Below are positions 32,507-64,000 of a stretch of 64,000 nucleotides of DNA, piece by piece. Location: assembly GCA_964016885.1 (NCBI GenBank), contig OZ024742.1:223262001-223326000 (forward strand). Direction: 5' to 3'. The notes under the pieces are model-generated. The model made no database searches. It saw only the letters and a list, made by a program, of their open reading frames with translations, and was not told the origin of the DNA. Source of the stretch: Eledone cirrhosa. Taxonomy: Eukaryota. Numbering within the stretch: the stretch's first letter is position 1; each line of letters opens with the position of its first letter. A program made the translations under genes and the position numbers.

Positions 32507-32724
32507 CTGTTGCATGAGATGATATCGATTAAGGTTTCTCTTCTTCTCCATCTCCGCAGGGTTAAATAAGGACTTTTTCTTTGTCCGTGGAGATAATGGA
32601 GGTGTTCCAGCAAAGTTGGACAATATTGAGGTCGATGTTGTTGTGTTGGAACTGTGAGACGATGACAAACTTTCCAGAGAACTGGAACTGTCCAGGGCAA
32701 GACTTTTAGGGGCTTCTTGGGTAT
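32507..32724 (-). CDS. Internal exon of the - strand gene (DTQEAPKSLALDSSSSLESL...PPLSPRTKKKSLFNPAEMEKKRNLNRYHLMQQ)
   Basis: ctttttctctgtAG acceptor, CAG|GTaaat donor, 218 nt, phase 1/0, open frame (not the frame in the ORF track). Confidence 0.85.
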
Positions 32725-33939: not shown

Positions 33940-34047
33940 CAAAAACTGCAACAAGAGACTGCAGTGCAAACTGTAGATGTCGTTTAGTAGCTTGCTTTCC
34001 CAGTCGAAGTGTAACGTCATCACGTCCAACATCAATGAGATCAAAAC
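33940..34047 (-). CDS. Internal exon of the - strand gene (xFDLIDVGRDDVTLRLGKQATKRHLQFALQSLVAVF); probably the end of a folded domain
   Basis: gttttttAG acceptor, G|GTgagt donor, 108 nt, phase 1/1; needs further upstream exons. Confidence 0.8.
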
Positions 34048-34469
34048 CTAAAAAACATGTAAGGAATATGTTACAATATTGTTTAGAATAGATTCATCAT
34101 AACACTGTGTGTTGTAGGAGATGACTAAAAGGGTTGATACCAGGAAGGACATCCAGTCATAATAACAGTGCTTCAAAATGACCCCCAAGTGGGCCCGCAA
34201 GGTTAACCCCAGCCTGTGAAGTGTTCTTAAGATGTGATTTGAAGGAAATTTGGTTAACAACAGAGATGTGAGTTAGATGTGAGATGTACTAAGAGTAATA
34301 CTAACACAAATATAAGTTATCAAAATAATAGTAGTAGTAGAGTTAGTATCGATAGTACAAGTTATCTACAGATATAGTAGTAGTAGTCATACTAACAACA
34401 ATAGTAATAGTGAGTACTTTAACAGTAATAATATAGATATAATAAGTTATAATGATATATACTAATATA

Positions 34470-37400
34470 AACATTAGTTACCTAGAGATGTACTAACAAC
34501 AGTAGTACTATAGACATTAGATACCTAGAGATGTACTAACAACAGTGGTAATATAGACATTAGGTACCTAGAGATGTACTAACAACAGTAGTAATATAGA
34601 CATTAGATATCTAGAGATGTACTAACAACAGTAGTAATATAGACATTAGTTACCTAGAGATGTACTAACAACAGTAGTAATATAGACATTAGTTACCTAG
34701 AGATATACTAACAACGGTAGTAATATAGACATTAGTTACCTAGGTATATACTAACAACAGTAGTAATATAGACATTAGTTACCTAGAGATATACGAACAA
34801 CAGTAGTAATATAGACATTAGTTACTTAGGTATATACTAACAACAGTAGTAATATAGACATTAGTTACCTAGGTATATACTAACAACAGTAGTAATATAG
34901 GCATTAGTTACCTAGAGATATACTAACAACAGTAGTAATATAGACATTAGTTACCTAGAGATATACTAACAACAGTAGTAATATAGACATTAGTTACTTA
35001 GGTATATACTAACAACAGTAGTAATATAGACATTAGTTACCTAGGTATATACTAACAACACTAGTAATATAGACATTAGTTACTTAGGTATATACTAACA
35101 ACAGTAGTAATATAGACATTAGCTACCTAGAGATATGCTAACAACAGTAGTAATATAGACATTAGTTACCTAGGTATATACTAACAACAGTAGTAATATA
35201 GACATTAGTTACCTAGAGATATACTAACAACAGTAGTAATATAGACATTAGTTACCTAGGTATATACTAACAACAGTAGTAATATAGACATTAGGTACCT
35301 AGAGATATACTAACAACAGTAGTAATATAGACATTAGGTACCTAGAGGTATACTAACAACAGTAGTAATATAGACATTAGTTACTTAGGTATATACTAAC
35401 AACAGTAGTAATATAGACATTAGCTACCTAGAGATATACTAACAACAGTAGTAATATAGACATTAGTTACCTAGGTATATACTAACAACAGTAGTAATAT
35501 AGACATTAGTTACCTAGAGATATACTAACAACAGTAGTAATATAGACATTAGGTACCTAGGTATATACTAACAACAGTAGTAATATAGACATTAGGTACC
35601 TAGGTATATACTAACAACAGTAGTAATATAGACATTAGTTACCTAGGTATATACTAACAACAGTAGTAATATAGACATTAGGTACCTAGGGATATACTAA
35701 CAACAGTAGTAATATAGACATTAGTTACCTAGGTATATACTAACAACACTAGTAATATAGACATTAGTTACCTAGAGATATACTAACAACAGTAGTAATA
35801 TAGACATTAGTTACCTAGGTATATACTAACAACAGTAGTAATATAGACATTAGTTACCTAGAGATATACTAACAACAGTAGTAATATAGACATTAGTTAC
35901 CTAGAGATATACTAACAACAGTAGTAATATAGACATTAGTTACCTAGGTATATACTAACAACAGTAGTAATATAGACATTAGTTACCTAGGTATATACTA
36001 ACAACAGTAGTAATATAGACATTAGTTACCTAGGTATATAATAACAACAGTAGTAATATAGACATTAGTTACCTAGGTATATACTAACAACAGTAGTAAT
36101 ATAGACATTAGTTACCTAGGTATATACTAACAACAGTAGTAATATAGACATTAGGTACCTAGAGATATACTAACAACAGTAGTAATATAGACATTAGGTA
36201 CCTAGGTATATACTAACAACAGTAGTAATATAGACATTAGTTACCTAGAGATATACTAACAACAGTAGTAATATAGACATCAGTTACCTAGGTATATACT
36301 AACAACAGTAGTAATATAGACATTAGGTACCTAGGTATATACTAACAACAGTAGTAATATAGACATAAGTTACCTAGAGATATACTAACAACAGTAGTAA
36401 TATAGACATCAGTTACCTAGGTATATACTAACAACAGTAGTAATATAGACATTAGTTACCTAGAGATATACTAACAACAGTAGTAATATAGACATCAGTT
36501 ACCTAGGTATATACTAACAACAGTAGTAATATAGATATTAGGTACCTAGGTATATACTAACAACAGTAGTAATATAGACATAAGTTACCTAGAGATATAC
36601 TAACAACAGTAGTAATATAGACATCAGTTACCTAGGTATATACTAACAACAGTAGTAATATAGACATTAGGTACCTAGGTATATACTAACAACAGTAGTA
36701 ATATAGACATTAGTTACCTAGGTATATACTAACAACAGTAGTAATATAGACATTAGTTACCTAGAGATATACTAACGACAGTAGTAATATAGACATTAGT
36801 TACCTAGAGATATACTAACAACAGAAGTAATATAGACATCAGTTACCTAGGTATATACTAACAACAGTAGTAATATAGAGATTAGGTACCTAGAGATATA
36901 CTAACAACAGTAGTAATATAGACATTAGTTACCTAGAGATATACTAACAACAGTAGTAATATAGACATTAGTTACCTAGGTATATACTAACAACAGTAGT
37001 AATATAGACATTAGGTACCTAGAGATATACTAACAACAGTAGTAATATAGACATTATGTACCTAGAGGTATACTAACAACAGTAGTAATATAGACATTAG
37101 TTACCTAGGTATATACTAACAACAGTAGTAATATAGACATTAGTTACCTAGAGATATACTAACAACAGTAGTAATATAGACATTAGTTACCTAGAGATAT
37201 ACTAACAACAGTAGTAATATAGACATTAGTTACCTAGGGATATACTAACAACAGTAGTAATATAGACATTAGTTACCTAGGTATATACTAACAACAGTAG
37301 TAATATAGACATTAGGTACCTAGGTATATACTAACAACAGTAGTAATATAGACATTAGTTACATAGGTATATACTAACAACAGTAGTAATATAGACATTA

Positions 37401-40400
37401 GTTACCTAGAGATATACTAACAACAGTAGTAATATAGACATTAGTTACTTAGGTATATACTAACAACAGTAGTAATATAGACATTAGGTACCTAGGTATA
37501 TACTAACAACAGTAGTAATATAGACATTAGTTACCTAGGTATATACTAACAACAGTAGTAATATAGACATTAGTTACCTAGAGATATACTAACAACAGTA
37601 GTAATATAGACATTAGGTACCTAGGTATATACTAACAACAGTAGTAATATAGACATTAGGTACCTAGGTATATACTAACAACAGTAGTAACATAGACATT
37701 AGTTACCTAGAGATATACTAACAACAGTAGTAATATAGATATTAGTTACCTAGGTATATACTAACAACACCAGTAATATAGACATTAGTTACCTAGGTAT
37801 ATACTAACAACAGTAGTAATATAGACATTAGTTACCTAGGTATATACTAACAACAGTAGTAATAGAGACATTAGATACCTAGAGATATACTAACAACAGT
37901 AGTAATATAGACATTAGTTACCTAGGTATATACTAACAACAGTAGTAATATAGACATTAGTTACCTAGGTATATACTAACAACAGTAGTAATATAGACAT
38001 TAGTTACCTAGAGATATACTAACAACAGTAGTAATATAGACATTAGTTACCTAGAGATATACTAACGACAGTAGTAATATAGACATTAGTTACCTAGGTA
38101 TATACTAACAACAGTAGTAATATAGACATTAGTTACCTAGAGATATACTAACAACAGTAGTAATATAGACATTAGTTACCTAGGTATATACTAACAACAG
38201 TAGTAATATAGACATTAGTTACCTAGGTATATACTAACAACAGTAGTAATATAGACATTAGTTACCTAGGTATATACTAACAACAATAGTAATATAGACA
38301 TTAGTTACCTAGGTATATACTAACAACAATAGTAATATAGACATTAGGTACCTAGAGATATACTAACAACAGTAGTAATATAGTCATTAGTTACCTAGGG
38401 ATATACTAACAACAGTAGTAATATAGACATTAGTTACGTAGGTATATACTAACAACAGTAGTAATATAGACATTAGTTACCTAGGTATATACTAACAACA
38501 GTAGTAATATAGTCCTTAGTTACCTAGGGATATACTAACAACAGTAGTAATATAGACATTAGTTACGTAGGTATATACTAACAACAATAGTAATATAGAC
38601 ATTAGTTACTTAGGTATATACTAACAACAGTAGTAATATAGACATTAGTTACCTAGGTATATACTAACAACAGTAGTAATATAGACATTAGTTACCTCGA
38701 GATGTACTAACAACAGTAGTAATGTAGACATTAGTTACCTAGGTATATACTAACAACAGTAGTAATATAAACATTAGTTACCTAGAGATGTACTAACAAC
38801 AGTAGTAATATAGACATTAGTTACCTAGGTATATACTAACAACACTAGTAATATAGACATTAGTTACCTAGGTATATACTAACAACAGCAGTAATATAGA
38901 CATTAGTTACCTAGAGATATACTAACAACAGTAGTAATATAGACATTAGTTACCTAGAGATATACTAACAACAGTAGTAATATAGACATTAGTTACCTAG
39001 GTATATACTAACAACAGTAGTAATATAGACATTAGTTACCTAGGTATATACTAACAACACTAGTAATATAGACATTAGTTACCTAGGTATATACTAACAA
39101 CAGTAGTAATATAGACATTAGTTACCTAGGTATATACTAACAACACTAGTAATATAGACATTAGTTACCTAGGGATATACTAACAACAGTAGTAATATAG
39201 ACATTAGTTACCTAGGTATATACTAACAACAGTAGTAATATAGACATTAGTTACCTAGGTATATACTAACAACAGTAGTAATATAGACATTAGTTACCTA
39301 GAGATATACTAACAACAGTAGTAATATAGACATTAGGTACCTAGAGATATACTAACAACAGTAGTAATATAAACATTAGTTACCTAGGTATATACTAACA
39401 ACAGTAGTAATATAGACATTAGTTACCTAGAGATATACTAACAACAGTAGTAATATAGACATTAGTTACCTAGAGATATACTAACAACAGTAGTAATATA
39501 GACATTAGTTACCTAGGTATATACTAACAACAGTAGTAATATAGACATTAGTTACCTAGAGGTATACTAACAACAGTAGTAATATAGACATTAGTTACCT
39601 AGAGATATACTAACAACAGTAGTAATATAGACATTAGTTACCTAGGTATATACTAACAACAATAGTAATATAGACATTAGTTACCTAGGTATATACTAAC
39701 AACAGTAGTAATATAGACATTAGTTACCTAGAGATATACTAACAACAGTAGTAATATAGACATTAGGTACCTAGGTATATACTAACAACAGTAGTAATAT
39801 AGACATTAGTTACCTAGGTATATACTAACAACAGTAGTAATATAGACATTAGTTACCTAGGTATATACTAACAACAGTAGTAATATAGACATTAGTTACC
39901 TAGAGATATACTAACAACAGTAGTAATATAGACATTAGTTACCTAGAGATATACTAACAACAGTAGTAATATAGACATAAGCTACCTAGGTATATACTAA
40001 CAACAGTAGTAATATAGACATTAGTTACCTAGAGATGTACTAACAACAGTAGTAATATAGACATTAGTTACCTAGGTATATACTAACAACAGTAGTAATA
40101 TAGACATTAGGTACCTAGTCATATACTAACAACAGTAGTAATATAGACATTAGTTACCTAGAGATGTACTAACAACAGTAGTAATATAGACATTAGTTAC
40201 CTAGAGATATACTAACAACACTAGTAATATACACATTAGTTACCTAGGTATATACTAACAACAGTAGTAATATAGACATCAGTTACCTAGAGATATACTA
40301 ACAACAGTAGTAATATAGACATTAGTTACTTAGGTATATACTAACAACAGTAGTAATATAGACATTAGTTACCTAGAGATGTACTAACAACAGTAGTAAT

Positions 40401-43400
40401 ATAGACATTAGGTACCTAGAGATATACTAACAACAGTAGTAATATAGACATTAGGTACCTAGGTATATACTAACAACAGTAGTAATATAGACATTAGTTA
40501 CCTAGGTATATACTAACAACAGTAGTAATATAGACATTAGGAACCTAATGTAATAACAACAGTAGTAACATAGACATTAGGTACCTAGAGATATCCTAAC
40601 AACAGTAGTAATATGGACATTAGTTACCTAGGTATATACTAACAACAGTAGTAATATAGACATTAGTTACCTAGGTATATACTAACAACAGTAGTAATAT
40701 AGACATTAGTTACCTAGGTATATACTAACAACAGTAGTAATATAGACATTAGTTACCTAGGTATATACTAACAACAGTAGTAATATAGACATTAGTTACC
40801 TAGGTATATACTAACAACAGTAGTAATATAGACATTAGGTACCTAGGTATATACTAACAACAGTATTAATATAGACATTAGTTACCTAGGTATATACTAA
40901 CAACAGTAGTAATAGAGACATTAGTTACCTAGGTATATACTAACAACAGTAGTAATATAGACATTAGTTACCTAGGTATATACTAACAACAGTAGTAATA
41001 TAGACATTAGTTACCTAGGTATATACTGACAACAGTAGTAATATAGACATTAGTTACCTAGGTATATACTAACAACAATAGTAATATAGACATTAGGTAC
41101 CTAGAGATATACTAACAACAGTAGTAATATAGACATTAGGTACCTAGAGATATACTAACAACAGTAGTAATATAGACATTAGTTACTTAGGTATATACTA
41201 ACAACAGTAGTAATATAGACATTAGTTACCTAGGTATATACAAACAACAATAGTAATATAGACATTAGGTACCTAGAGATATACTAACAACTGTAGTAAT
41301 ATAGACATTAGGTACCTAGAGATATACTAACAACAGTAGTAATATAGACATTAGTTACTTAGGTATATACTAACAACAGTAGTAATATAGACATTAGTTA
41401 CCTAGGTATATACTAACAACACTAGTAATATAGACATTAGTTACTTAGGTATATACTAACAACAGTAGTAATATAGACATTAGCTACCTAGAGATATACT
41501 AACAACAGTAGTAATATAGACATTAGTTACCTAGGTATATACTAACAACAGTAGTAATATAGACATTAGTTACCTAGAGATATACTAACAACAGTAGTAA
41601 TATAGACATTAGTTACCTAGGTATATACTAACAACAGTAGTAATATAGACATTAGGTACCTAGAGATATACTAACAACAGTAGTAATATAGACATTAGGT
41701 ACCTAGAGGTATACTAACAACAGTAGTAATATAGACATTAGTTACTTAGGTATATACTAACACCAGTAGTAATATAGACATTAGCTACCTAGAGATATAC
41801 TAACAACAGTAGTAATATAGACATTAGTTACCTAGGTATATACTAACAACAGTAGTAATATAGACATTAGTTACCTAGAGATATACTAACAACAGTAGTA
41901 ATATAGACATTAGGTACCTAGGTATATACTAACAACAGTAGTAATATAGACATTAGGTACCTAGGTATATACTAACAACAGTAGTAATATAGACATTAGT
42001 TACCTAGGTATATACTAACAACAGTAGTAATATAGACATTAGGTACCTAGGGATATACTAACAACAGTAGTAATATAGACATTAGTTACCTAGAGATATA
42101 CTAACAACAGTAGTAATATAGACATCAGTTACCTAGGTATATACTAACAACAGTAGTAATATAGACATTAGGTACCTAGGTATATACTAACAACAGTAGT
42201 AATATAGACATAAGTTACCTAGAGATATACTAACAACAGTAGTAATATAGACATCAGTTACCTAGGTATATACTAACAACAGTAGTAATATAGACATTAG
42301 TTACCTAGAGATATACTAACAACAGTAGTAATATAGACATCAGTTACCTAGGTATATACTAACAACAGTAGTAATATAGATATTAGGTACCTAGGTATAT
42401 ACTAACAACAGTAGTAATATAGACATAAGTTACCTAGAGATATACTAACAACAGTAGTAATATAGACATCAGTTACCTAGGTATATACTAACAACAGTAG
42501 TAATATAGACATTAGGTACCTAGGTATATACTAACAACAGTAGTAATATAGACATTAGTTACCTAGGTATATACTAACAACAGTAGTAATATAGACATTA
42601 GTTACCTAGAGATATACTAACGACAGTAGTAATATAGACATTAGTTACCTAGAGATATACTAACAACAGAAGTAATACAGACATCAGTTACCTAGGTATA
42701 TACTAACAACAGTAGTAATATAGAGATTAGGTACCTAGAGATATACTAACAACAGTAGTAATATAGACATTAGTTACCTAGAGATATACTAACAACAGTA
42801 GTAATATAGACATTAGTTACCTAGGTATATACTAACAACAGTAGTAATATAGACATTAGGTACCTAGAGATATACTAACAACAGTAGTAATATAGACATT
42901 AGGTACCTAGAGGTATACTAACAACAGTAGTAATATAGACATTAGTTACCTAGGTATATACTAACAACAGTAGTAATATAGACATTAGTTACCTAGAGAT
43001 ATACTAACAACAGTAGTAATATAGACATTAGTTACCTAGAGATATACTAACAACAGTAGTAATATAGACATTAGTTACCTAGGGATATACTAACAACAGT
43101 AGTAATATAGACATTAGTTACCTAGGTATATACTAACAACAGTAGTAATATAGACATTAGGTACCTAGGTATATACTAACAACAGTAGTAATATAGACAT
43201 TAGTTACATAGGTATATACTAACAACAGTAGTAATATAGACATTAGTTACCTAGAGATATACTAACAACAGTAGTAATATAGACATTAGTTACTTAGGTA
43301 TATACTAACAACAGTAGTAATATAGACATTAGGTACCTAGGTATATACTAACAACAGTAGTAATATAGACATTAGTTACCTAGGTATATACTAACAACAG

Positions 43401-46400
43401 TAGTAATATAGACATTAGTTACCTAGAGATATACTAACAACAGTAGTAATATAGACATTAGGTACCTAGGTATATACTAACAACAGTAGTAATATAGACA
43501 TTAGGTACCTAGGTATATACTAACAACAGTAGTAACATAGACATTAGTTACCTAGAGATATACTAACAACAGTAGTAATATAGATATTAGTTACCTAGGT
43601 ATATACTAACAACACCAGTAATATAGACATTAGTTACCTAGGTATATACTAACAACAGTAGTAATATCGACATTAGTTACCTAGGTATATACTAACAACA
43701 GTAGTAATAGAGACATTAGGTACCTAGAGATATACTAACAACAGTAGTAATATAGACATTAGTTACCTAGGTATATACTAACAACAGTAGTAATATAGAC
43801 ATTAGTTACCTAGGTATATACTAACAACAGTAGTAATATAGACATTAGTTACCTAGAGATATACTAACAACAGTAGTAATATAGACATTAGTTACCTAGA
43901 GATATACTAACGACAGTAGTAATATAGACATTAGTTACCTAGGTATATACTAACAACAGTAGTAATATAGACATTAGTTACCTAGAGATATACTAACAAC
44001 AGTAGTAATATAGACATTAGTTACCTAGGTATATACTAACAACAGTAGTAATATAGACATTAGTTACCTAGGTATATACTAACAACAGTAGTAATATAGA
44101 CATTAGTTACCTAGGTATATACTAACAACAATAGTAATATAGACATTAGTTACCTAGGTATATACTAACAACAATAGTAATATAGACATTAGGTACCTAG
44201 AGATATACTAACAACAGTAGTAATATAGTCATTAGTTACCTAGGGATATACTAACAACAGTAGTAATATAGACATTAGTTACGTAGGTATATACTAACAA
44301 CAGTAGTAATATAGACATTAGTTACCTAGGTATATACTAACAACAGTAGTAATATAGTCCTTAGTTACCTAGGGATATACTAACAACAGTAGTAATATAG
44401 ACATTAGTTACGTAGGTATATACTAACAACAATAGTAATATAGACATTAGTTACTTAGGTATATACTAACAACAGTAGTAATATAGACATTAGTTACCTA
44501 GGTATATACTAACAACAGTAGTAATATAGACATTAGTTACCTCGAGATGTACTAACAACAGTAGTAATGTAGACATTAGTTACCTAGGTATATACTAACA
44601 ACAGTAGTAATATAAACATTAGTTACCTAGAGATGTACTAACAACAGTAGTAATATAGACATTAGTTACCTAGGTATATACTAACAACACTAGTAATATA
44701 GACATTAGTTACCTAGGTATATACTAACAACAGCAGTAATATAGACATTAGTTACCTAGAGATATACTAACAACAGTAGTAATATAGACATTAGTTACCT
44801 AGAGATATACTAACAACAGTAGTAATATAGACATTAGTTACCTAGGTATATACTAACAACAGTAGTAATATAGACATTAGTTACCTAGGTATATACTAAC
44901 AACACTAGTAATATAGACATTAGTTACCTAGGTATATACTAACAACAGTAGTAATATAGACATTAGTTACCTAGGTATATACTAACAACACTAGTAATAT
45001 AGACATTAGTTACCTAGGGATATACTAACAACAGTAGTAATATAGACATTAGTTACCTAGGTATATACTAACAACAGTAGTAATATAGACATTAGTTACC
45101 TAGGTATATACTAACAACAGTAGTAATATAGACATTAGTTACCTAGAGATATACTAACAACAGTAGTAATATAGACATTAGGTACCTAGAGATATACTAA
45201 CAACAGTAGTAATATAAACATTAGTTACCTAGGTATATACTAACAACAGTAGTAATATAGACATTAGTTACCTAGAGATATACTAACAACAGTAGTAATA
45301 TAGACATTAGTTACCTAGAGATATACTAACAACAGTAGTAATATAGACATTAGTTACCTAGGTATATACTAACAACAGTAGTAATATAGACATTAGTTAC
45401 CTAGAGGTATACTAACAACAGTAGTAATATAGACATTAGTTACCTAGAGATATACTAACAACAGTAGTAATATAGACATTAGTTACCTAGGTATATACTA
45501 ACAACAATAGTAATATAGACATTAGTTACCTAGGTATATACTAACAACAGTAGTAATATAGACATTAGTTACCTAGAGATATACTAACAACAGTAGTAAT
45601 ATAGACATTAGGTACCTAGGTATATACTAACAACAGTAGTAATATAGACATTAGTTACCTAGGTATATACTAACAACAGTAGTAATATAGACATTAGTTA
45701 CCTAGGTATATACTAACAACAGTAGTAATATAGACATTAGTTACCTAGAGATATACTAACAACAGTAGTAATATAGACATTAGTTACCTAGAGATATACT
45801 AACAACAGTAGTAATATAGACATAAGCTACCTAGGTATATACTAACAACAGTAGTAATATAGACATTAGTTACCTAGAGATGTACTAACAACAGTAGTAA
45901 TATAGACATTAGTTACCTAGGTATATACTAACAACAGTAGTAATATAGACATTAGGTACCTAGTCATATACTAACAACAGTAGTAATATAGACATTAGTT
46001 ACCTAGAGATATACTAACAACACTAGTAATATACACATTAGTTACCTAGGTATATACTAACAACAGTAGTAATATAGACATCAGTTACCTAGAGATATAC
46101 TAACAACAGTAGTAATATAGACATTAGTTACTTAGGTATATACTAACAACAGTAGTAATATAGACATTAGTTACCTAGAGATGTACTAACAACAGTAGTA
46201 ATATAGACATTAGGTACCTAGAGATATACTAACAACAGTAGTAATATAGACATTAGGTACCTAGGTATATACTAACAACAGTAGTAATATAGACATTAGT
46301 TACCTAGGTATATACTAACAACAGTAGTAATATAGACATTAGGAACCTAATGTAATAACAACAGTAGTAACATAGACATTAGGTACCTAGAGATATCCTA

Positions 46401-49400: not shown

Positions 49401-52400
49401 AGATATACTAACAACAGTAGTAATATAGACATTAGGTACCTAGAGATATACTAACAACAGTAGTAATATAGACATTAGTTACCTAGAGATATGCTAACAA
49501 CAGTAGTAATATAGACATTAGTTACCTAGAGATGTACTAACAACAGTAGTAATATAGACATTAGTTACCTAGGTATATACTAACAACAGTAGTAATATAG
49601 ACATTAGTTACCTAGAGATATACTAACAACAGTAGTAATATAGACATCAGTTACCTAGGTATATACTAACAACAGTAGTAATATAGACATTAGTTACCTA
49701 GAGATATACTAACAACAGTAGTAATATAGACATTAGTTACCTAGAGATATACTAACAACAGTAGTAATATAGACATTAGGTACCTAGGTATATACTAACA
49801 ACAATAGTAATATAGACATTAGGTACCTAGGTACATACTAACAACAGTAGTAATATAGACATTAGGTACCTAGGGATATACTAACAACAGTAGTAATATA
49901 GACATTAGTTACCTAGAGATGTACTAACAACAGTAGTAATATAGACATTAGTTACCTAGAGATATACTAACAACACTAGTAATATACACATTAGTTACCT
50001 AGGTATATACTAACAACAGTAGTAATATAGACATCAGTTACCTAGAGATATACTAACAACAGTAGTAATATAGACATTAGTTACTTAGGTATATACTAAC
50101 AACAGTAGTAATATAGACATTAGTTACCTAGAGATGTACTAACAACAGTAGTAATATAGACATTAGGTACCTAGAGATATACTAACAACAGTAGTAATAT
50201 AGACATTAGGTACCTAGGTATATACTAACAACAGTAGTAATATAGACATTAGTTACCTAGGTATATACTAACAACAGTAGTAATATAGACATTAGGAACC
50301 TAATGTACTAACAACAGTAGTAACATAGACATTAGGTACCTAGAGATATCCTAACAACAGTAGTAATATGGACATTAGTTACCTAGGTATATACTAACAA
50401 CAGTAGTAATATAGACATTAGTTACCTAGGTATATACTAACAACAGTAGTAATATAGACATTAGTTACCTAGGTATATACTAACAACAGTAGTAATATAG
50501 ACATTAGTTACCTAGGTATATACTAACAACAGTAGTAATATAGACATTAGTTACCTAGGTATATACTAACAACAGTAGTAATATAGACATTAGGTACCTA
50601 GGTATATACTAACAACAGTATTAATATAGACATTAGTTACCTAGGTATATACTAACAACAGTAGTAATAGAGACATTAGTTACCTAGGTATATACTAACA
50701 ACAGTAGTAATATAGACATTAGTTACCTAGGTATATACTAACAACAGTAGTAATATAGACATTAGTTACCTAGGTATATACTAACAACAGTAGTAATATA
50801 GACATTAGTTACCTAGGTATATACTAACAACAATAGTAATATAGACATTAGGTACCTAGAGATATACTAACAACAGTAGTAATATAGACATTAGGTACCT
50901 AGAGATATACTAACAACAGTAGTAATATAGACATTAGTTACTTAGGTATATACTAACAACAGTAGTAATATAGACATTAGTTACTTAGGTATATACTAAC
51001 AACAGTAGTAATATAGACATTAGTTACCTAGGTATATACTAACAACAATAGTAATATAGACATTAGGTACCTAGAGATATACTAACAACTGTAGTAATAT
51101 AGACATTAGGTACCTAGAGATATACTAACAACAGTAGTAATATAGACATTAGTTACTTAGGTATATACTAACAACAGTAGTAATATAGACATTAGTTACC
51201 TAGGTATATACTAACAACACTAGTAATATAGACATTAGTTACTTAGGTATATACTAACAACAGTAGTAATATAGACATTAGCTACCTAGAGATATACTAA
51301 CAACAGTAGTAATATAGACATTAGTTACCTAGGTATATACTAACAACAGTAGTAATATAGACATTAGTTACCTAGAGATATACTAACAACAGTAGTAATA
51401 TAGACATTAGTTACCTAGGTATATACTAACAACAGTAGTAATATAGACATTAGGTACCTAGAGATATACTAACAACAGTAGTAATATAGACATTAGGTAC
51501 CTAGAGGTATACTAACAACAGTAGTAATATAGACATTAGTTACTTAGGTATATACTAACACCAGTAGTAATATAGACATTAGCTACCTAGAGATATACTA
51601 ACAACAGTAGTAATATAGACATTAGTTACCTAGGTATATACTAACAACAGTAGTAATATAGACATTAGTTACCTAGAGATATACTAACAACAGTAGTAAT
51701 ATAGACATTAGGTACCTAGGTATATACTAACAACAGTAGTAATATAGACATTAGGTACCTAGGTATATACTAACAACAGTAGTAATATAGACATTAGTTA
51801 CCTAGGTATATACTAACAACAGTAGTAATATAGACATTAGGTACCTAGGGATATACTAACAACAGTAGTAATATAGACATTAGTTACCTAGAGATATACT
51901 AACAACAGTAGTAATATAGACATTAGTTACCTAGGTATATACTAACAACACTAGTAATATAGACATTAGTTACCTAGGTATATACTAACAACAGTAGTAA
52001 TATAGACATTAGTTACCTAGGTATATACTAACAACAGTAGTAATATAGACATTAGTTACCTAGGTATATACTAACAACAATAGTAATATAGACATTAGTT
52101 ACCTAGGTATATACTAACAACAATAGTAATATAGACATTAGGTACCTAGAGATATACTAACAACAGTAGTAATATAGTCATTAGTTACCTAGGGATATAC
52201 TAACAACAGTAGTAATATAGACATTAGTTACGTAGGTATATACTAACAACAGTAGTAATATAGACATTAGTTACCTAGGTATATACTAACAACAGTAGTA
52301 ATATAGTCCTTAGTTACCTAGGGATATACTAACAACAGTAGTAATATAGACATTAGTTACGTAGGTATATACTAACAACAATAGTAATATAGACATTAGT

Positions 52401-55400
52401 TACTTAGGTATATACTAACAACAGTAGTAATATAGACATTAGTTACCTAGGTATATACTAACAACAGTAGTAATATAGACATTAGTTACCTCGAGATGTA
52501 CTAACAACAGTAGTAATGTAGACATTAGTTACCTAGGTATATACTAACAACAGTAGTAATATAAACATTAGTTACCTAGAGATGTACTAACAACAGTAGT
52601 AATATAGACATTAGTTACCTAGGTATATACTAACAACACTAGTAATATAGACATTAGTTACCTAGGTATATACTAACAACAGCAGTAATATAGACATTAG
52701 TTACCTAGAGATATACTAACAACAGTAGTAATATAGACATTAGTTACCTAGAGATATACTAACAACAGTAGTAATATAGACATTAGTTACCTAGGTATAT
52801 ACTAACAACAGTAGTAATATAGACATTAGTTACCTAGGTATATACTAACAACACTAGTAATATAGACATTAGTTACCTAGGTATATACTAACAACAGTAG
52901 TAATATAGACATTAGTTACCTAGGTATATACTAACAACACTAGTAATATAGACATTAGTTACCTAGGGATATACTAACAACAGTAGTAATATAGACATTA
53001 GTTACCTAGGTATATACTAACAACAGTAGTAATATAGACATTAGTTACCTAGGTATATACTAACAACAGTAGTAATATAGACATTAGTTACCTAGAGATA
53101 TACTAACAACAGTAGTAATATAGACATTAGGTACCTAGAGATATACTAACAACAGTAGTAATATAAACATTAGTTACCTAGGTATATACTAACAACAGTA
53201 GTAATATAGACATTAGTTACCTAGAGATATACTAACAACAGTAGTAATATAGACATTAGTTACCTAGAGATATACTAACAACAGTAGTAATATAGACATT
53301 AGTTACCTAGGTATATACTAACAACAGTAGTAATATAGACATTAGTTACCTAGAGGTATACTAACAACAGTAGTAATATAGACATTAGTTACCTAGAGAT
53401 ATACTAACAACAGTAGTAATATAGACATTAGTTACCTAGGTATATACTAACAACAATAGTAATATAGACATTAGTTACCTAGGTATATACTAACAACAGT
53501 AGTAATATAGACATTAGTTACCTAGAGATATACTAACAACAGTAGTAATATAGACATTAGGTACCTAGGTATATACTAACAACAGTAGTAATATAGACAT
53601 TAGTTACCTAGGTATATACTAACAACAGTAGTAATATAGACATTAGTTACCTAGGTATATACTAACAACAGTAGTAATATAGACATTAGTTACCTAGAGA
53701 TATACTAACAACAGTAGTAATATAGACATTAGTTACCTAGAGATATACTAACAACAGTAGTAATATAGACATAAGCTACCTAGGTATATACTAACAATAG
53801 TAGTAATATAGACATTAGTTACCTAGAGATGTACTAACAACAGTAGTAATATAGACATTAGTTACCTAGGTATATACTAACAACAGTAGTAATATAGACA
53901 TTAGGTACCTAGTCATATACTAACAACAGTAGTAATATAGACAATAGTTACCTAGAGATGTACTAACAACAGTAGTAATATAGACATTAGTTACCTAGAG
54001 ATATACTAACAACACTAGTAATATACACATTAGTTACCTAGGTATATACTAACAACAGTAGTAATATAGACATCAGTTACCTAGAGATATACTAACAACA
54101 GTAGTAATATAGACATTAGTTACTTAGGTATATACTAACAACAGTAGTAATATAGACATTAGTTACCTAGAGATGTACTAACAACAGTAGTAATATAGAC
54201 ATTAGGTACCTAGAGATATACTAACAACAGTAGTAATATAGACATTAGGTACCTAGGTATATACTAACAACAGTAGTAATATAGACATTAGTTACCTAGG
54301 TATATACTAACAACAGTAGTAATATAGACATTAGGAACCTAATGTACTAACAACAGTAGTAACATAGACATTAGGTACCTAGAGATATCCTAACAACAGT
54401 AGTAATATGGACATTAGTTACCTAGGTATATACTAACAACAGTAGTAATATAGACATTAGTTACCTAGGTATATACTAACAACAGTAGTAATATAGACAT
54501 TAGTTACCTAGGTATATACTAACAACAGTAGTAATATAGACATTAGTTACCTAGGTATATACTAACAACAGTAGTAATATAGACATTAGTTACCTAGGTA
54601 TATACTAACAACAGTAGTAATATAGACATTAGGTACCTAGGTATATACTAACAACAGTATTAATATAGACATTAGTTACCTAGGTATATACTAACAACAG
54701 TAGTAATAGAGACATTAGTTACCTAGGTATATACTAACAACAGTAGTAATATAGACATTAGTTACCTAGGTATATACTAACAACAGTAGTAATATAGACA
54801 TTAGTTACCTAGGTATATACTAACAACAGTAGTAATATAGACATTAGTTACCTAGGTATATACTAACAACAATAGTAATATAGACATTAGGTACCTAGAG
54901 ATATACTAACAACAGTAGTAATATAGACATTAGGTACCTAGAGATATACTAACAACAGTAGTAATATAGACATTAGTTACTTAGGTATATACTAACAACA
55001 GTAGTAATATAGACATTAGTTACTTAGGTATATACTAACAACAGTAGTAATATAGACATTAGTTACCTAGGTATATACTAACAACAATAGTAATATAGAC
55101 ATTAGGTACCTAGAGATATACTAACAACTGTAGTAATATAGACATTAGGTACCTAGAGATATACTAACAACAGTAGTAATATAGACATTAGTTACTTAGG
55201 TATATACTAACAACAGTAGTAATATAGACATTAGTTACCTAGGTATATACTAACAACACTAGTAATATAGACATTAGTTACTTAGGTATATACTAACAAC
55301 AGTAGTAATATAGACATTAGCTACCTAGAGATATACTAACAACAGTAGTAATATAGACATTAGTTACCTAGGTATATACTAACAACAGTAGTAATATAGA

Positions 55401-58400
55401 CATTAGTTACCTAGAGATATACTAACAACAGTAGTAATATAGACATTAGTTACCTAGGTATATACTAACAACAGTAGTAATATAGACATTAGGTACCTAG
55501 AGATATACTAACAACAGTAGTAATATAGACATTAGGTACCTAGAGATATACTAACAACAGTAGTAATATAGACATTAGGTACCTAGAGATATACTAACAA
55601 CAGTAGTAATATAGACATTAGGTACCTAGAGATATACTAACAACAGTAGTAATATAGACATTAGTTACCTAGGTATATACTAACAACAGTAGTAATATAG
55701 ACATTAGTTACCTAGAGATATACTAACAACAGTAGTAATATAGACATCAGTTACCTAGGTATATACTAACAACAGTAGTAATATAGACATTAGGTACCTA
55801 GAGATATACTAACAACAGTAGTAATATAGACATTAGTTACCTAGAGATATACTAACAACAGTAGTAATATAGACATTAGGTACCTAGGTATATACTAACA
55901 ACAGTAGTAATATAGACATTAGTTACCTAGGTATATACTAACAACAGTAGTAATATAGACATTAGTTACCTAGGTATATACTAACAACAGTAGTAATATA
56001 GACATTAGTTACCTAGAGATATACTAACAACAGTAGTAATATAGACATTAGTTACCTAGAGATATACTAACAACAGTAGTAATATAGACATAAGCTACCT
56101 AGGTATATACTAACAACAGTAGTAATATAGACATTAGTTACCTAGAGATGTACTAACAACAGTAGTAATATAGACATTAGTTACCTAGGTATATACTAAC
56201 AACAGTAGTAATATAGACATTAGGTACCTAGTCATATACTAACAACAGTAGTAATATAGACATTAGTTACCTAGGTATATACTAACAACAGTAGTAATAT
56301 AGACATTAGTTACCTAGAGATGTACTAACAACAGTAGTAATATAGACATTAGGTACCTAGAGATATACTAACAACAGTAGTAATATAGACATTAGTTACC
56401 TAGAGATATACTAACAACAGTAGTAATATAGACATTAGTTACCTAGAGATATACTAACAACAGTAGTAATATAGACATTAGGTACCTAGAGATATACTAG
56501 CAACAGTAGTAATATAGACATTAGTTACCTAGAGGTATACTAACAACAGTAGTAATATAGACATTAGTTACCTAGGTATATACTAACAACAGTAGTAATA
56601 TAGACATTAGGTACCTAGAGATATACTAACAACAGTAGTAATATAGACATTAGGTACCTAGAGATATACTAACAACAGTAGTAATATAGACATTAGTTAC
56701 CTAGAGATATACTAACAACAGTAGTAATATAGACATTAGTTACCTAGAGATGTACTAACAACAGTAGTAATATAGACATTAGTTACCTAGGTATATACTA
56801 ACAACAGTAGTAATATAGACATTAGTTACCTAGAGATATACTAACAACAGTAGTAATATAGACATCAGTTACCTAGGTATATACTAACAACAGTAGTAAT
56901 ATAGACATTAGTTACCTAGAGATATACTAACAACAGTAGTAATATAGACATTAGTTACCTAGAGATATACTAACAACAGTAGTAATATAGACATTAGGTA
57001 CCTAGGTATATACTAACAACAATAGTAATATAGACATTAGGTACCTAGGTACATACTAACAACAGTAGTAATATAGACATTAGGTACCTAGGGATATACT
57101 AACAACAGTAGTAATATAGACATTAGTTACCTAGAGATGTACTAACAACAGTAGTAATATAGACATTAGTTACCTAGAGATATACTAACAACACTAGTAA
57201 TATACACATTAGTTACCTAGGTATATACTAACAACAGTAGTAATATAGACATCAGTTACCTAGAGATATACTAACAACAGTAGTAATATAGACATTAGTT
57301 ACTTAGGTATATACTAACAACAGTAGTAATATAGACATTAGTTACCTAGAGATGTACTAACAACAGTAGTAATATAGACATTAGGTACCTAGAGATATAC
57401 TAACAACAGTAGTAATATAGACATTAGGTACCTAGGTATATACTAACAACAGTAGTAATATAGACATTAGTTACCTAGGTATATACTAACAACAGTAGTA
57501 ATATAGACATTAGGAACCTAATGTACTAACAACAGTAGTAACATAGACATTAGGTACCTAGAGATATCCTAACAACAGTAGTAATATGGACATTAGTTAC
57601 CTAGGTATATACTAACAACAGTAGTAATATAGACATTAGTTACCTAGGTATATACTAACAACAGTAGTAATATAGACATTAGTTACCTAGGTATATACTA
57701 ACAACAGTAGTAATATAGACATTAGTTACCTAGGTATATACTAACAACAGTAGTAATATAGACATTAGTTACCTAGGTATATACTAACAACAGTAGTAAT
57801 ATAGACATTAGGTACCTAGGTATATACTAACAACAGTATTAATATAGACATTAGTTACCTAGGTATATACTAACAACAGTAGTAATAGAGACATTAGTTA
57901 CCTAGGTATATACTAACAACAGTAGTAATATAGACATTAGTTACCTAGGTATATACTAACAACAGTAGTAATATAGACATTAGTTACCTAGGTATATACT
58001 AACAACAGTAGTAATATAGACATTAGTTACCTAGGTATATACTAACAACAATAGTAATATAGACATTAGGTACCTAGAGATATACTAACAACAGTAGTAA
58101 TATAGACATTAGGTACCTAGAGATATACTAACAACAGTAGTAATATAGACATTAGTTACTTAGGTATATACTAACAACAGTAGTAATATAGACATTAGTT
58201 ACTTAGGTATATACTAACAACATTAGTAATATAGACATTAGTTACCTAGGTATATACTAACAACAATAGTAATATAGACATTAGGTACCTAGAGATATAC
58301 TAACAACTGTAGTAATATAGACATTAGGTACCTAGAGATATACTAACAACAGTAGTAATATAGACATTAGTTACTTAGGTATATACTAACAACAGTAGTA

Positions 58401-61400
58401 ATATAGACATTAGTTACCTAGGTATATACTAACAACACTAGTAATATAGACATTAGTTACTTAGGTATATACTAACAACAGTAGTAATATAGACATTAGC
58501 TACCTAGAGATATACTAACAACAGTAGTAATATAGACATTAGTTACCTAGGTATATACTAACAACAGTAGTAATATAGACATTAGTTACCTAGAGATATA
58601 CTAACAACAGTAGTAATATAGACATTAGTTACCTAGGTATATACTAACAACAGTAGTAATATAGACATTAGGTACCTAGAGATATACTAACAACAGTAGT
58701 AATATAGACATTAGGTACCTAGAGGTATACTAACAACAGTAGTAATATAGACATTAGTTACTTAGGTATATACTAACAACAGTAGTAATATAGACATTAG
58801 CTACCTAGAGATATACTAACAACAGTAGTAATATAGACATTAGTTACCTAGGTATATACTAACAACAGTAGTAATATAGACATTAGTTACCTAGAGATAT
58901 ACTAACAACAGTAGTAATATAGACATTAGGTACCTAGGTATATACTAACAACAGTAGTAATATAGACATTAGGTACCTAGGTATATACTAACAACAGTAG
59001 TAATATAGACATTAGTTACCTAGGTATATACTAACAACAGTAGTAATATAGACATTAGGTACCTAGGGATATACTAACAACAGTAGTAATATAGACATTA
59101 GTTACCTAGAGATATACTAACAACAGTAGTAATATAGACATTAGTTACCTAGGTATATACTAACAACACTAGTAATATAGACATTAGTTACCTAGAGATA
59201 TACTAACAACAGTAGTAATATAGACATTAGTTACCTAGGTATATACTAACAACAGTAGTAATATAGACATTAGTTACCTAGAGATATACTAACAACAGTA
59301 GTAATATAGACATTAGTTACCTAGAGATATACTAACAACAGTAGTAATATAGACATTAGTTACCTAGGTATATACTAACAACATTAGTAATATAGACATT
59401 AGTTACCTAGGTATATACTAACAACAGTAGTAATATAGACATTAGTTACCTAGGTATATAATAACAACAGTAGTAATATAGACATTAGTTACCTAGGTAT
59501 ATACTAACAACAGTAGTAATATAGACATTAGGTACCTAGAGATATACTAACAACAGTAGTAATATAGACATTAGGTACCTAGAGATATACTAACAACAGT
59601 AGTAATATAGACATTAGGTACCTAGAGATATACTAACAACAGTAGTAATATAGACATTAGTTACCTAGGTATATACTAACAACAGTAGTAATATAGACAT
59701 TAGTTACCTAGAGATATACTAACAACAGTAGTAATATAGACATCAGTTACCTAGGTATATACTAACAACAGTAGTAATATAGACATTAGGTACCTAGAGA
59801 TATACTAACAACAGTAGTAATATAGACATTAGTTACCTAGAGATATACTAACAACAGTAGTAATATAGACATTAGTTACCTAGGTATATACTAACAACAG
59901 GAGTAATATAGACATTAGTTACCTAGAGATATACTAACAACAGTAGTAATATAGACATTAGTTACCTAGGTATATACTAACAACAGTAGTAATATAGACA
60001 TTAGGTACCTAGAGATATACTAACAACAGTAGTAATATAGACATTAGGTACATAGAGGTATACTAACAACAGTAGTAATATAGACATTAGTTACCTAGGT
60101 ATATACTAACAACAGTAGTAATATAGACATTAGTTACCTAGGTATATACTAACAACAGTAGTAATATAGACATTAGTTACCTAGAGATATACTAACAACA
60201 GTAGTAATATAGACATTAGTTACCTAGAGATATACTAACAACAGTAGTAATATAGACATTAGTTACCTAGGGATATACTAACAACAGTAGTAATATAGAC
60301 ATTAGTTACCTAGGTATATACTAACAACAGTAGTAATATAGACATTAGGTACCTAGGTATATACTAACAACAGTAGTAATATAGACATTAGTTACCTAGG
60401 TATATACTAACAACAGTAGTAATATAGACATTAGTTACCTAGAGATATACTAACAACAGTAGTAATATAGACATTAGTTACTTAGGTATATACTAACAAC
60501 AGTAGTAATATAGACATTAGGTACCTAGGTATATACTAACAACAGTAGTAATATAGACATTAGTTACCTAGGTATATACTAACAACAGTAGTAATATAGA
60601 CATTAGTTACCTAGAGATATACTAACAACAGTAGTAATATAGACATTAGGTACCTAGGTATATACTAACAACAGTAGTAATATAGACATTAGTTACCTAG
60701 GTATATACTAACAACAATAGTAATATAGACATTAGGTACCTAGAGATATACTAACAACAGTAGTAATATAGACATTAGTTACCTAGGTATATACTAACAA
60801 CAGTAGTAATATAGACATTAGTTACCTAGGTATATACTAACAACAGTAGTAATATAGATATTAGTTACCTAGAGATGTACTAACAACAGTAGTAGTATAG
60901 ACATTAGTTACCTAGGTATATACTAACAACAGTAGTAATATAGACATTAGTTACCTAGGTATATACTAACAACAGTAGTAATATAGACATTAGTTACTTA
61001 GGTATATACTAACAACAGTAGTAATATAGACATTAGGTACCTAGGTATATACTAACAACAGTATTAATATAGACATTAGTTACCTAGGTATATACTAACA
61101 ACAGTAGTAATAGAGACATCAGTTACCTAGGTATATACTAACAACAGTAGTAATATAGACATTAGTTACCTAGGTATATACTAACAACAGTAGTAATATA
61201 GACATTAGTTACCTAGGTATATACTAACAACAATAGTAATATAGACATTAGTTACCTAGAGATGTACTAACAACAGTAGTAATATAGACATTAGTTACCT
61301 AGGTATATACTAACAACAATAGTAATATAGACATTAGGTACCTAGAGATATACTAACAACAGTAGTAATATAGACATTAGTTACCTAGGTATATACTAAC

Positions 61401-64000
61401 AACAGTAGTAATATAGACATTAGTTACCTAGGTATATACTAACAACAATAGTAATATAGACATTAGGTACCTAGAGATATACTAACAACAGTAGTAATAT
61501 AGACATTAGGTACCTAGAGATATACTAACAACAGTAATAATATAGACATTAGTTACTTAGGTATATACTAACAACAGTAGTAATATAGACATTAGTTACC
61601 TAGAGATATACTAACAACAGTAGTAATATAGACATTAGTTACCTAGGTATATACTAACAACAGTAGTAATATAGACATTAGGTTCCTAGAGATATACTAA
61701 CAACAGTAGTAATATAGACATTAGTTACCTAGAGATATACTAACAACAGTAGTAATATAGACATCAGTTACCTAGGTATATACTAACAACAGTAGTAATA
61801 TAGACATTAGTTACCTAGGTATATACTAACAACAGTAGTAATATAGACATTAGTTACCTAGGTATATACTAACAACAGTAGTAATATAGACATTAGTTAC
61901 CTAGGTATATACTAACAACAGTAGTAATATAGACATTAGTTACTTAGGTATATACTAACAACAGTAGTAATATAGACATTAGTTACCTAGGTATATACTA
62001 ACAACAGTAGTAATATAGACATTAGTTACCTAGGTATATACTAACAACAGTAGTAATATAGACATTAGTTACTTAGGTATATACTAACAACAGTAGTAGT
62101 ATAGACATTAGTTACCTAGAGATATACGAACAACAGTAGTAATATAGACATTAGTTACCTAGAGATATACGAACAACAGTAGTAATATAGACATTAGTTA
62201 CTTAGGTATATACTAACAACAGTAGTAATATAGACATTAGTTACCTAGGTATATACTAACAACAGTAGTAATATAGACATTAGTTACCTAGGTATATACT
62301 AACAACAATAGTAATATAGACATTAGTTACCTAGGTATATACTAACAACAGTAGTAATATAGACATTAGTTACCTAGGTATATACTAACAACAGTAGTAA
62401 TACAGACATTAGTTACCTAGGTATATACTAACAACAATAGTAATATAGACATTAGGTACCTAGAGATATACTAACAACAGTAGTAATATAGATATTAGTT
62501 ACCTAGAGATGTACTAACAACAGTAGTAGTATAGACATTAGTTACCTAGGTATATACTAACAACAGTAGTAATATAGACATTAGTTACTTAGGTATATAC
62601 TAACAACAGTAGTAATATAGACATTAGTTACCTAGGTATATACTAACAACAGTAGTAATATAGACATTAGGTACCTAGAGATATACTAACAAAAGTAGTA
62701 ATATAGACATTAGGTACCTAGAGATATACTAACAACAGTAGTAATATAGACATTAGTTACCTAGGTATATACTAACAACAGTAGTAATATAGACATTAGG
62801 TACCTAGAGATATACTAACAACAGTAGTAATATAGACATTAGTTACCTAGGTATATACTAACAACAGTAGTAATATAGACATTAGTTACCTAGGTATATA
62901 CTAACAACAGTAGTAATATAGACATTAGTTACTTAGGTATATACTAACAACAGTAGTAGTATAGACATTAGTTACCTAGAGATATACGAACAACAGTAGT
63001 AATATAGACATTAGTTACCTAGAGATATACGAACAACAGTAGTAATATAGACATTAGTTACTTAGGTATATACTAACAACAGTAGTAATATAGACATTAG
63101 TTATCTAGGTATATACTAACAACAATAGTAATATAGACATTAGTTACCTAGGTATATACTAACAACAGTAGTAATATAGACATTAGTTACCTAGGTATAT
63201 ACTAACAACAATAGTAATATAGACATTAGTTACCTAGGTATATACTAACAACAGTAGTAATATAGACATTAGTTACCTAGGTATATACTAACAACAGTAG
63301 TAATATAGACATTAGTTACCTAGGTATATACTAACAACAATAGTAATATAGACATTAGGTACCTAGAGATATACTAACAACAGTAGTAATATAGACATTA
63401 GTTACCTAGGTATATACTAACAACAGTAGTAATATAGATATTAGTTACCTAGAGATGTACTAACAACAGTAGTAGTATAGACATTAGTTACCTAGGTATA
63501 TACTAACAACAGTAGTAATATAGACATTAGTTACCTAGGTATATACTAACAACAGTAGTAATATAGACATTAGTTACCTAGGTATATACTAACAACAGTA
63601 GTAATATAGACATTAGGTACCTAGAGATATACTAACAACAGTAGTAATATAGACATTAGGTACCTAGAGATATACTAACAACAGTAGTAATATAGACATT
63701 AGTTACCTAGGTATATACTAACAACAATAGTAATATAGACATTAGGTACCTAGAGATATACTAACAACAGTAGTAATATAGACATTAGTTACCTAGGTAT
63801 ATACTAACAACAGTAGTAATATAGACATTAGGTACCTAGAGATATACTAACAACAGTAGTAATATAGACATTAGTTACCTAGGTATATACTAACAACAGT
63901 AGTAATATAGACATTAGTTACCTAGGTATATACTAACAACAATAGTAATATAGACATTAGTTACCTAGGTATATACTAACAACAGTAGTAATATAGACAT
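34470..64000. repeat. 43-bp satellite array, ~29.5 kb, ~690 monomers, runs off the window
   Basis: Consensus GACATTAGTTACCTAGGTATATACTAACAACAGTAGTAATATA; period checked (actaacaaca at 34621 and 34664). Two common polymorphisms: agTtac/agGtac and tagGTat/tagAGat. Confidence 0.99.

What the first reader, a model, noticed from the sequence alone, without database searches (positions are those of the whole stretch)
34470..64000. A >29-kb pure 43-bp satellite apparently inside an intron of an intact gene
Seen: the exon at 34047-33940 (- strand) begins with a phase-1 AG acceptor and has no start context, so its upstream exon lies to the right. Only ~400 bp separates it from ~690 uninterrupted monomers. 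I saw no SINE insertion in the array, although the flanking 34 kb has one every 1-2 kb, implying recent expansion or active homogenisation. Inference: Pol II must transcribe the whole array, as in the satellite-filled giant introns of Drosophila Y fertility genes.
Basis: partly seen in the sequence, partly recalled or inferred. Interest (0 to 1): 0.75.

Follow-up and report, generated by a model that had tools for sequence, protein, structure and literature searches.

The report
Splice-donor satellite inside octopod TTC28
In an octopus-type genome, the splice signal at the end of one exon of the intact TTC28 gene is repeated about 740 times in a row in the next intron, yet a public spliced transcript joins the two exons exactly at the original signal, so the copies are likely ignored passengers: a very large case of an oddity known from a few human and bird genes.

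Summary
The array is real: 34,463-66,170 (2.2 kb past the window), 738 units of 43 bp, no gap, and 721 of 722 genome-wide probe hits lie here. It fills 96% of a 32,917-nt intron of an intact TTC28 gene (90% identical to Octopus vulgaris TTC28). One spliced contig from a public run joins the flanking exons exactly. A 759-bp solo LTR inside the first unit puts the nearest identical decoy 1,108 nt away, and any decoy use meets a stop two codons in. The intron position is ancestral. Most likely a neutral local expansion, spliced at the first donor, as in human F7/CBS donor VNTRs (5-25 copies) and avian 'exon stuttering' (1-44 copies). The Drosophila Y analogy fails on scale: this gene has a longer intron (65 kb). 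The scan noted this arrangement before at other loci of this genome (unreviewed, 1,850-1,930 copies). Recursive splicing is not excluded but poorly supported.

The parts
34463..64000 (-). 43-bp tandem array: 687 units in the window, 738 in all; it runs on past the window to L009:2170 (extended coordinate 66,170). On the transcribed strand each unit is intron +1..+34 plus the last 8-9 exon bases.
34048..64000 (-). In-window part of the TTC28 intron (32,917 nt in all, GT-AG, phase 1, 96% array). Beyond the window it holds the rest of the array, a 759-bp solo LTR with a 5-bp target-site duplication (L009:2171-2929), and unit 1 with the authentic donor (L009:2930-2964). The upstream 109-nt exon, source of the unit, is L009:2965-3073.
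34281..34462 (-). Decayed unit-like fringe (about 4 older copies)
   Evidence: score 77 for 34,281-34,450 against mean 36.6, SD 8.4, max 65 in 300 shuffles
33940..34047 (-). Downstream exon (108 nt); 100% identical to O. vulgaris TTC28
32507..32724 (-). TTC28 exon (218 nt)
30432..30714 (-). TTC28 exon (283 nt)
27516..29599 (-). TTC28 last coding exon, ending in TGA

Best explanation
The array is a single-locus tandem repeat of the TTC28 exon/intron donor junction that fills 96% of a 33-kb intron, and the one spliced contig seen joins the upstream exon to the acceptor exactly at the original donor; it likely grew in place as a neutral expansion, and the spliceosome likely commits to the first donor and ignores the ~740 copies. 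Steps. (1) Shown: the unit is 8-9 exon bases plus intron +1..+34. (2) Inferred: the intron is older than the array; a short duplication across the donor seeded the repeat. (3) Shown: a solo LTR with a target-site duplication sits in unit 1. Inferred: it inserted after the repeat existed and now spaces the real donor ~0.8-1.1 kb from the decoys. (4) Shown: multi-kilobase blocks are duplicated exactly. Inferred: recent growth by unequal exchange, which also explains the lack of SINEs. (5) Inferred from F7 experiments and exon definition: U1 binds the donor 109 nt from the upstream acceptor before any decoy is transcribed. (6) Shown: read-through past the real donor meets an in-frame stop two codons in. 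Inferred: any decoy-spliced RNA would be removed by NMD. (7) Shown: the sense strand of the array has no AATAAA or ATTAAA. Inferred: this helps it be tolerated.
For: Unit = junction: (GT in 735 of 738; AG|GT in 675; 479 identical to the real donor 9-mer; 140 identical over -8..+14). Single locus: 616 of 616 exact hits and 721 of 722 one-mismatch hits. Exact junction: the same 7,861-nt contig of run X4 maps with 0 mismatches to 33,940-34,050 (record 2,544-2,654) and L009:2963-3073 (record 2,650-2,760). Intact gene: 18 exons give 2,763 codons with no internal stop, 2,462 of 2,746 aligned residues identical to P0071 (O. vulgaris). Ancestral intron: 6 of 32 aligned homologue models (bivalve, tick, three fish, lizard) begin, end or gap at this codon. 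No extra conservation of donor positions (1.33 against 1.44 distinct alternative bases per position), and two of the commonest variants weaken the donor. Precedent: only the most upstream of identical donors is used in F7 (PMC1557585).
Against: RNA evidence is one assembled contig from one run whose kind is not on record. Contigs drop rare forms and NMD would hide decoy products, so 'ignored' is not measured. A recursive path would give the same mature junction. In IFI6 (6-16) and CBS some proximal pseudo-sites are used. Donor-weakened units are enriched next to the real donor (20 of the first 30 units carry +4C; at most 11 in any later window of 30). The dominant unit type also makes a 10-base palindrome over the decoy donor with a higher predicted opening cost (7.1 against 4.6 kcal/mol). 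Either could be selection and not drift. No orthologous intron DNA could be compared.
Confidence: 0.78

Rival explanations
1. Recursive-splicing ladder: the AG|GT in each unit acts as a zero-length exon, so the intron is removed in steps, each step regenerating the authentic donor exactly.
For: 675 of 738 units have AG|GT, and splicing to it would rebuild the real donor with the same exon-side bases. A branch-point-like word lies ~35 nt upstream (sequence; motif recalled). The mature junction would be the same. Tandem AGGT dual sites are used in human UBC (PMC10809524, abstract).
Against: 0 of 672 YAGGT sites meet the published Y5+N0-4YAGGT motif (PMC10156609). This is a weak test, since only 8 of 17 real acceptors of this gene have such a tract. 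664 of 675 AG|GT sites have another AG within -20..-3, against 0 of 17 real acceptors; that first AG is not followed by GT. The AG and GT are no better conserved than the rest of the unit.
Confidence: 0.08
2. The array is under selection as a control device: a U1-loading, poly(A)-signal-free stretch that keeps Pol II going, a timer, or a decoy/NMD sink that sets TTC28 dose by copy number.
For: 479-675 potential U1 sites and 0 AATAAA/ATTAAA in 31.7 kb, against ~1.2 AATAAA per kb in three other introns of the gene. U1 suppresses premature cleavage and speeds elongation in long introns (PMC12216098, passages). Decoy use would hit a stop.
Against: Both features follow automatically from copying one 43-mer. 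The gene already crosses longer introns full of poly(A) signals. There is no sign of constraint on donor positions. Unreviewed notes list many intronic arrays in this genome without donor content.
Confidence: 0.07
3. A much shorter array was over-expanded, or mis-ordered, by the assembler.
For: Exact internal duplications of up to 53 units could in part be assembly copies. Read-depth ratios (about 150-250) are at or below the assembly's 31-mer counts (about 220-320). No long reads were available.
Against: There is no gap. There are 84 distinct unit types with private variants. Both flanks belong to consecutive exons of one gene, so a misjoin is excluded. Unit-joint contigs in DNA-like runs are 150-250 times deeper than single-copy pieces (one sample; the tool warns that depth is not copy number).
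Confidence: 0.05
4. A Drosophila Y-loop-type giant intron needing a dedicated expression programme.
For: Satellite-filled intron in an intact gene that Pol II must cross.
Against: 33 kb against megabases. It is not the longest intron of the gene. ATG to stop spans 205 kb. Nothing points to germline restriction.
Confidence: 0.02

Closest known systems
Human exon/intron-spanning minisatellites with 5' pseudo-sites: F7 IVS7 37-bp VNTR, IFI6 (6-16), CBS IVS13, LAMIN B2, PDGF (PMC1557585; abstract, Introduction and Discussion read)
   Same: The first unit spans the exon/donor junction (F7: 4 exon + 33 intron bases; here 8-9 + 34). Identical donors are reiterated in the intron and the most upstream one is spliced.
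   Different: 5-25 copies there, 738 here (31.7 kb). Here an LTR splits unit 1 and spaces the decoys ~0.8-1.1 kb away, the host is an invertebrate, and length polymorphism and decoy competence are untested.
Avian 'exon stuttering' on dot chromosomes (PMC12954441; abstract, 12 passages and first part of Discussion read; supplements not read)
   Same: Strictly local intronic expansion of a unit that includes the exon edge and its splice site, with the exon left intact.
   Different: 1-44 copies, spans up to 23.6 kb, exon part 20-187 bp, GC-rich microchromosomes. Here 738 very uniform units, 8-9 exon bases, 29% GC, mid-way along a 379-Mb chromosome-scale contig.
Drosophila Y-loop genes kl-3, kl-5 (PMC11207136 passages; PMC6508621 search listing only)
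   Same: Satellite-filled intron transcribed as part of a pre-mRNA.
   Different: Megabase scale, spermatocyte-specific programme. Here 33 kb and a private, donor-derived unit.
Recursive splice sites and tandem dual-specific AGGT sites (PMC10156609 passages; UBC, PMC10809524 abstract)
   Same: Tandem YAG|GT words on the sense strand.
   Different: No pyrimidine tract of the published form, a competing AG 11 nt upstream, and no evidence of use.

Membership tests
Splice-donor-reiterating minisatellite (F7/CBS type) | First unit spans the exon-intron boundary | tested here: met
   exon end and intron +1..+35 match the unit; 140 array copies identical to the junction over -8..+14
Splice-donor-reiterating minisatellite (F7/CBS type) | Donor sequence reiterated on the sense strand of the following intron | tested here: met
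   GT in 735 of 738, donor 9-mer identical in 479
Splice-donor-reiterating minisatellite (F7/CBS type) | Mature mRNA uses the most upstream donor | tested here: met
   one spliced contig, exact junction; minor forms cannot be seen in contigs
Splice-donor-reiterating minisatellite (F7/CBS type) | Copy number varies between individuals (VNTR) | not testable with these tools
   one assembly; depth from one DNA sample only
Splice-donor-reiterating minisatellite (F7/CBS type) | Pseudo-sites become active when the authentic donor is lost | not testable with these tools
   needs a minigene
Exon stuttering (avian type) | Expansion strictly local, source is the adjacent exon edge, exon intact | tested here: met
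Exon stuttering (avian type) | GC-rich dot-chromosome setting | tested here: not met
   28-29% GC, 379-Mb contig; works like it, not a member in the strict sense
Exon stuttering (avian type) | Large intron-length variation within the species | not testable with these tools
   no long reads from several individuals
Recursive splice sites | Pyrimidine tract + YAG directly followed by GT | tested here: not met
   0 of 672 YAGGT meet Y5+N0-4YAGGT; weak, as only 8 of 17 real acceptors have such a tract
Recursive splice sites | Sawtooth coverage or lariat reads at the site | not testable with these tools
   only assembled contigs were served
Y-loop gigantic introns | Intron of hundreds of kb to Mb | tested here: not met
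   32,917 nt against the sizes in PMC11207136
TTC28 orthologue | Full-length collinear match to named TTC28 proteins | tested here: met
Solo LTR (insert in unit 1) | Target-site duplication; sibling copies occur as direct pairs round an internal region | tested here: met
   5-bp duplication here and in L040, L041; pairs in L051, L052, ~1.05 kb apart

The most novel reading that the evidence does not exclude
The array is a natural splicing ladder. Each unit's AG|GT rebuilds the gene's real donor base for base, so the 33-kb intron is removed in many small recursive steps while hundreds of U1 sites carry Pol II across. Octopod introns then grow such donor-seeded ladders repeatedly by a splicing-linked process.
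Probability: 0.08. Interest if true: 0.75.

Novelty: new variant of a known kind. Interest (0 to 1): 0.4.

Why it matters
It is a natural stress test of 5' splice-site choice: one real donor against 479 identical and ~250 near-identical copies, 15-30 times more than in the published human and bird cases I read, with an exact spliced junction in hand. It extends exon-edge 'stuttering' to an AT-rich invertebrate gene. Together with unreviewed notes on other loci of this genome, it suggests that octopod introns often grow private repeats, some seeded on splice donors. If decoys are truly silent, it supports strict first-come donor commitment; if they are used, it would be a new scale of recursive or NMD-coupled splicing. 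As a giant intron it is ordinary for this gene and genome.

Tried and rejected
Pfam scan of the three short exon translations beside the array: 0 families. Identity rests on homologue alignments. No RNA holder was listed as such for the region; X4 is treated as RNA-like only because its contig is spliced. X4 showed no contig with the unit-to-unit joint that X1-X3 showed: absence in contigs, not used as evidence. RNA-structure masking of decoys as a selected trait was not supported. Across 129 single-base changes of the exon-like unit, copy number did not track predicted masking (Spearman 0.06, p 0.53), and a 260-nt stretch folded no better than shuffles (-49.9 against -44.8 +/- 4.3 kcal/mol). 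Against this, the dominant double change scored +5.6 kcal/mol as a pure run, and 150 of 738 sampled decoys averaged 6.7 against 3.8 for the real donor, within the 2.4-8.7 range of the gene's 17 donors; left open. Intron gain by duplication of an AG|GT site was rejected, because homologue models break at the same codon. My scripted splice pick for one exon was 9 nt off and was corrected from the contig. Paper searches for TTC28 + octopus + intron gave 0 papers, and cephalopod + minisatellite + intron + splice site + expansion gave 1 general review. Searches showed no cephalopod case in their listings. The library lacks most subscription papers.
Full report
Coordinates are window coordinates; values above 64,000 continue the numbering into G000:C3 (the window is C3:223,262,001-223,326,000; 200 kb more fetched; L009 position = value minus 64,000). 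The gene is on the minus strand.

Observation. The array runs 34,463-64,000 in the window (43 bp, 687.3 copies) and ends at 66,170 (737.7 copies, no N nearby). Segmenting gives 738 units: 732 of 43 nt, 5 of 40 nt and one terminal part-unit, in 84 distinct 43-mer types, on average 1.5 bases from the commonest type and 5.3% apart pairwise. It is a single-locus repeat: all 616 exact hits of one probe and 721 of 722 one-mismatch hits of a second lie here. Two local SINE-like queries hit 10 places in 1-34,462, 11 in 66,171-98,000 and 0 in the array (lower bounds).

The gene. The exon at 34,047-33,940 and its neighbours belong to TTC28 (TPR repeats plus CHAT domain). Eighteen mapped exons give 2,763 codons without an internal stop, 2,462 of 2,746 aligned residues identical to the Octopus vulgaris protein P0071. 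The two exons beside the array are 94% and 100% identical. The host is therefore an octopod (inferred; species not determined). A 7,861-nt contig of run X4 (kind not on record, one study) maps exon by exon with no mismatch on both sides: record 2,544-2,654 to 33,940-34,050 and record 2,650-2,760 to 66,963-67,073. The 5-base overlap arises because both ends read alike; GT-AG fixes the intron at 66,964-34,048, 32,917 nt, 96% array. I take the two records to be the same contig from equal length, depth, strand and abutting coordinates. Of 17 mapped introns, 15 are 196-5,077 nt, this one is 32,917 and one is 65,303 nt (by homology). A probable first intron is 79,314 nt (by homology).

What the unit is. 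Read on the transcribed strand, the unit is intron +1..+34 followed by the last 8-9 bases of the upstream exon. GT is kept in 735 of 738 units, AG|GT in 675, the real donor 9-mer in 479, and 140 copies match the junction over -8..+14. The donor itself is ordinary for the gene: 12 of 17 donors have G at +5, and this is one of the 5 that do not. Reading on past the donor gives Gly-Asn-stop, so use of any downstream copy truncates the protein. The intron predates the array: of 68 homologues returned, 32 aligned to the junction segment, and 6 of these gene models (bivalve, tick, three fish, lizard) start, stop or gap at this codon. This is indirect evidence, since no orthologous DNA was available.

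History. A 759-bp element at 66,171-66,929 sits at +35 of unit 1 between 5-bp direct repeats. It is a dispersed family (40 of 1,101 candidates scored, the best non-self full-length copies 79-89% identical), and sibling copies occur as direct pairs ~1.05 kb apart, so it is a solo LTR. The rest of unit 1 follows it, so the repeat most likely existed when it inserted (inferred). It moves the first decoy ~0.8 kb and the first identical donor 1,108 nt from the real one. At the 3' end about four decayed copies remain (score 77; shuffles 36.6 +/- 8.4, max 65 of 300). Inside, blocks of 74-321 units recur with exact runs up to 53 units, the pattern expected of recent unequal exchange (inferred). In DNA-like runs X1-X3 (one sample), contigs carrying the unit-to-unit joint are about 250, 153 and 176 times deeper than single-copy pieces, against about 220-320 copies of such 31-mers in the assembly. 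This fits hundreds of copies, but the tool warns that depth is not copy number.

Mechanism. Best reading (0.78): neutral local expansion, with splicing fixed at the first donor by exon definition and 5'-to-3' commitment, and NMD as a backstop. In human F7 a 37-bp VNTR has the same build; its pseudo-sites are functional but only the most upstream is used, and IFI6, CBS, LAMIN B2 and PDGF are similar with 10-25 copies, two of them using proximal pseudo-sites (PMC1557585; abstract, Introduction, Discussion). Donor positions in the array are not extra conserved, and +4 A>C (175) and -1 G>A (49) are among the commonest variants. The array has no AATAAA or ATTAAA on the sense strand, against ~1.2 AATAAA per kb in other introns; this may ease tolerance but follows from copying one 43-mer. 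Results that do not fit pure neutrality neatly: 20 of the first 30 units carry the weaker +4C donor (at most 11 in any later window of 30), and the dominant unit type forms a palindrome over the donor (367 copies) with higher predicted opening cost. Units are not independent, edge effects could explain the first, and a 129-change scan showed no trend.

Rivals. Recursive ladder (0.08): each AG|GT would rebuild the real donor, and tandem AGGT sites are used in UBC (PMC10809524, abstract). But 0 of 672 YAGGT sites meet the published motif (PMC10156609, passages; only 8 of 17 real acceptors have such a tract), and 664 of 675 have a competing AG within -20..-3 where 0 of 17 real acceptors do. Regulatory device (0.07; U1 roles from PMC12216098, passages). 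Assembly over-expansion (0.05). Y-loop-type programme (0.02; genes over 4 Mb in PMC11207136, passages).

Known kinds and novelty. It meets the testable features of the F7/CBS class and works like avian exon stuttering (1-44 copies, spans up to 23,555 bp; PMC12954441; abstract, passages, first part of Discussion; supplements not read and may hold larger cases). It differs in scale, host and the LTR spacer. I found no cephalopod case in the held library. PMC10078293 (passages) added nothing specific. My reading was fixed before the look-up of earlier notes (none near). Those notes, all unreviewed, report donor-derived arrays of ~1,850 and ~1,930 copies and many larger intronic arrays elsewhere in this genome. 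I confirmed only the two ends of one 35-bp array and could not locate the SHOC1 case. They suggest that the locus is one of a recurring type here.

Verdict. Real, well supported, a new large variant of a known kind; interest 0.40.

Noticed in passing
L009:2171-2929; siblings L040-L052: Solo LTR of a small non-autonomous LTR family, at least 40 copies, with 5-bp target duplications and non-canonical TG...AA ends; paired copies flank only ~1.05 kb, and several sit in TA or GATA microsatellites.
   Followed up: partly
L017:821-6268 (extended coordinates 144,821-150,268): A second private-looking minisatellite (20-21 bp, ~272 copies, 5.4 kb) in the 65-kb intron of the same gene; its unit carries no donor on the sense strand.
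   Followed up: no
L053:5358-10000 and L054:1-5172 (G000:C3 ~311.43-311.48 Mb): Ends of a 35-bp array noted earlier by the scan. Its first copy has a stronger donor (G at +5) than the later copies and follows a short exon-like stretch, so it may also be donor-seeded.
   Followed up: partly
L009:900-2157 (first 30 units): The units nearest the real donor are enriched for the weaker +4C donor (20 of 30); the three longest runs of it all lie there.
   Followed up: partly
window 12343-12921: A 0.6-kb degenerate 12/15/27-bp minisatellite downstream of TTC28.
   Followed up: no
extended coordinates 119,789-123,470, 154,691-155,146, 238,026-238,432 (L014, L018, L026): Tandem runs of a 48-bp piece of the common SINE-like element, up to ~26 copies.
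   Followed up: no
P0002: The bivalve TTC28 gene model lacks exactly the exon after this intron, and five other models break at the same codon, probably annotation errors at a conserved intron.
   Followed up: partly
extended coordinates 244,912-248,363 and 261,226-261,425 (L027, L028): A 15-bp array (140 copies) beside a 143-bp array upstream of the probable first coding exon, and a 200-base assembly gap further on.
   Followed up: no
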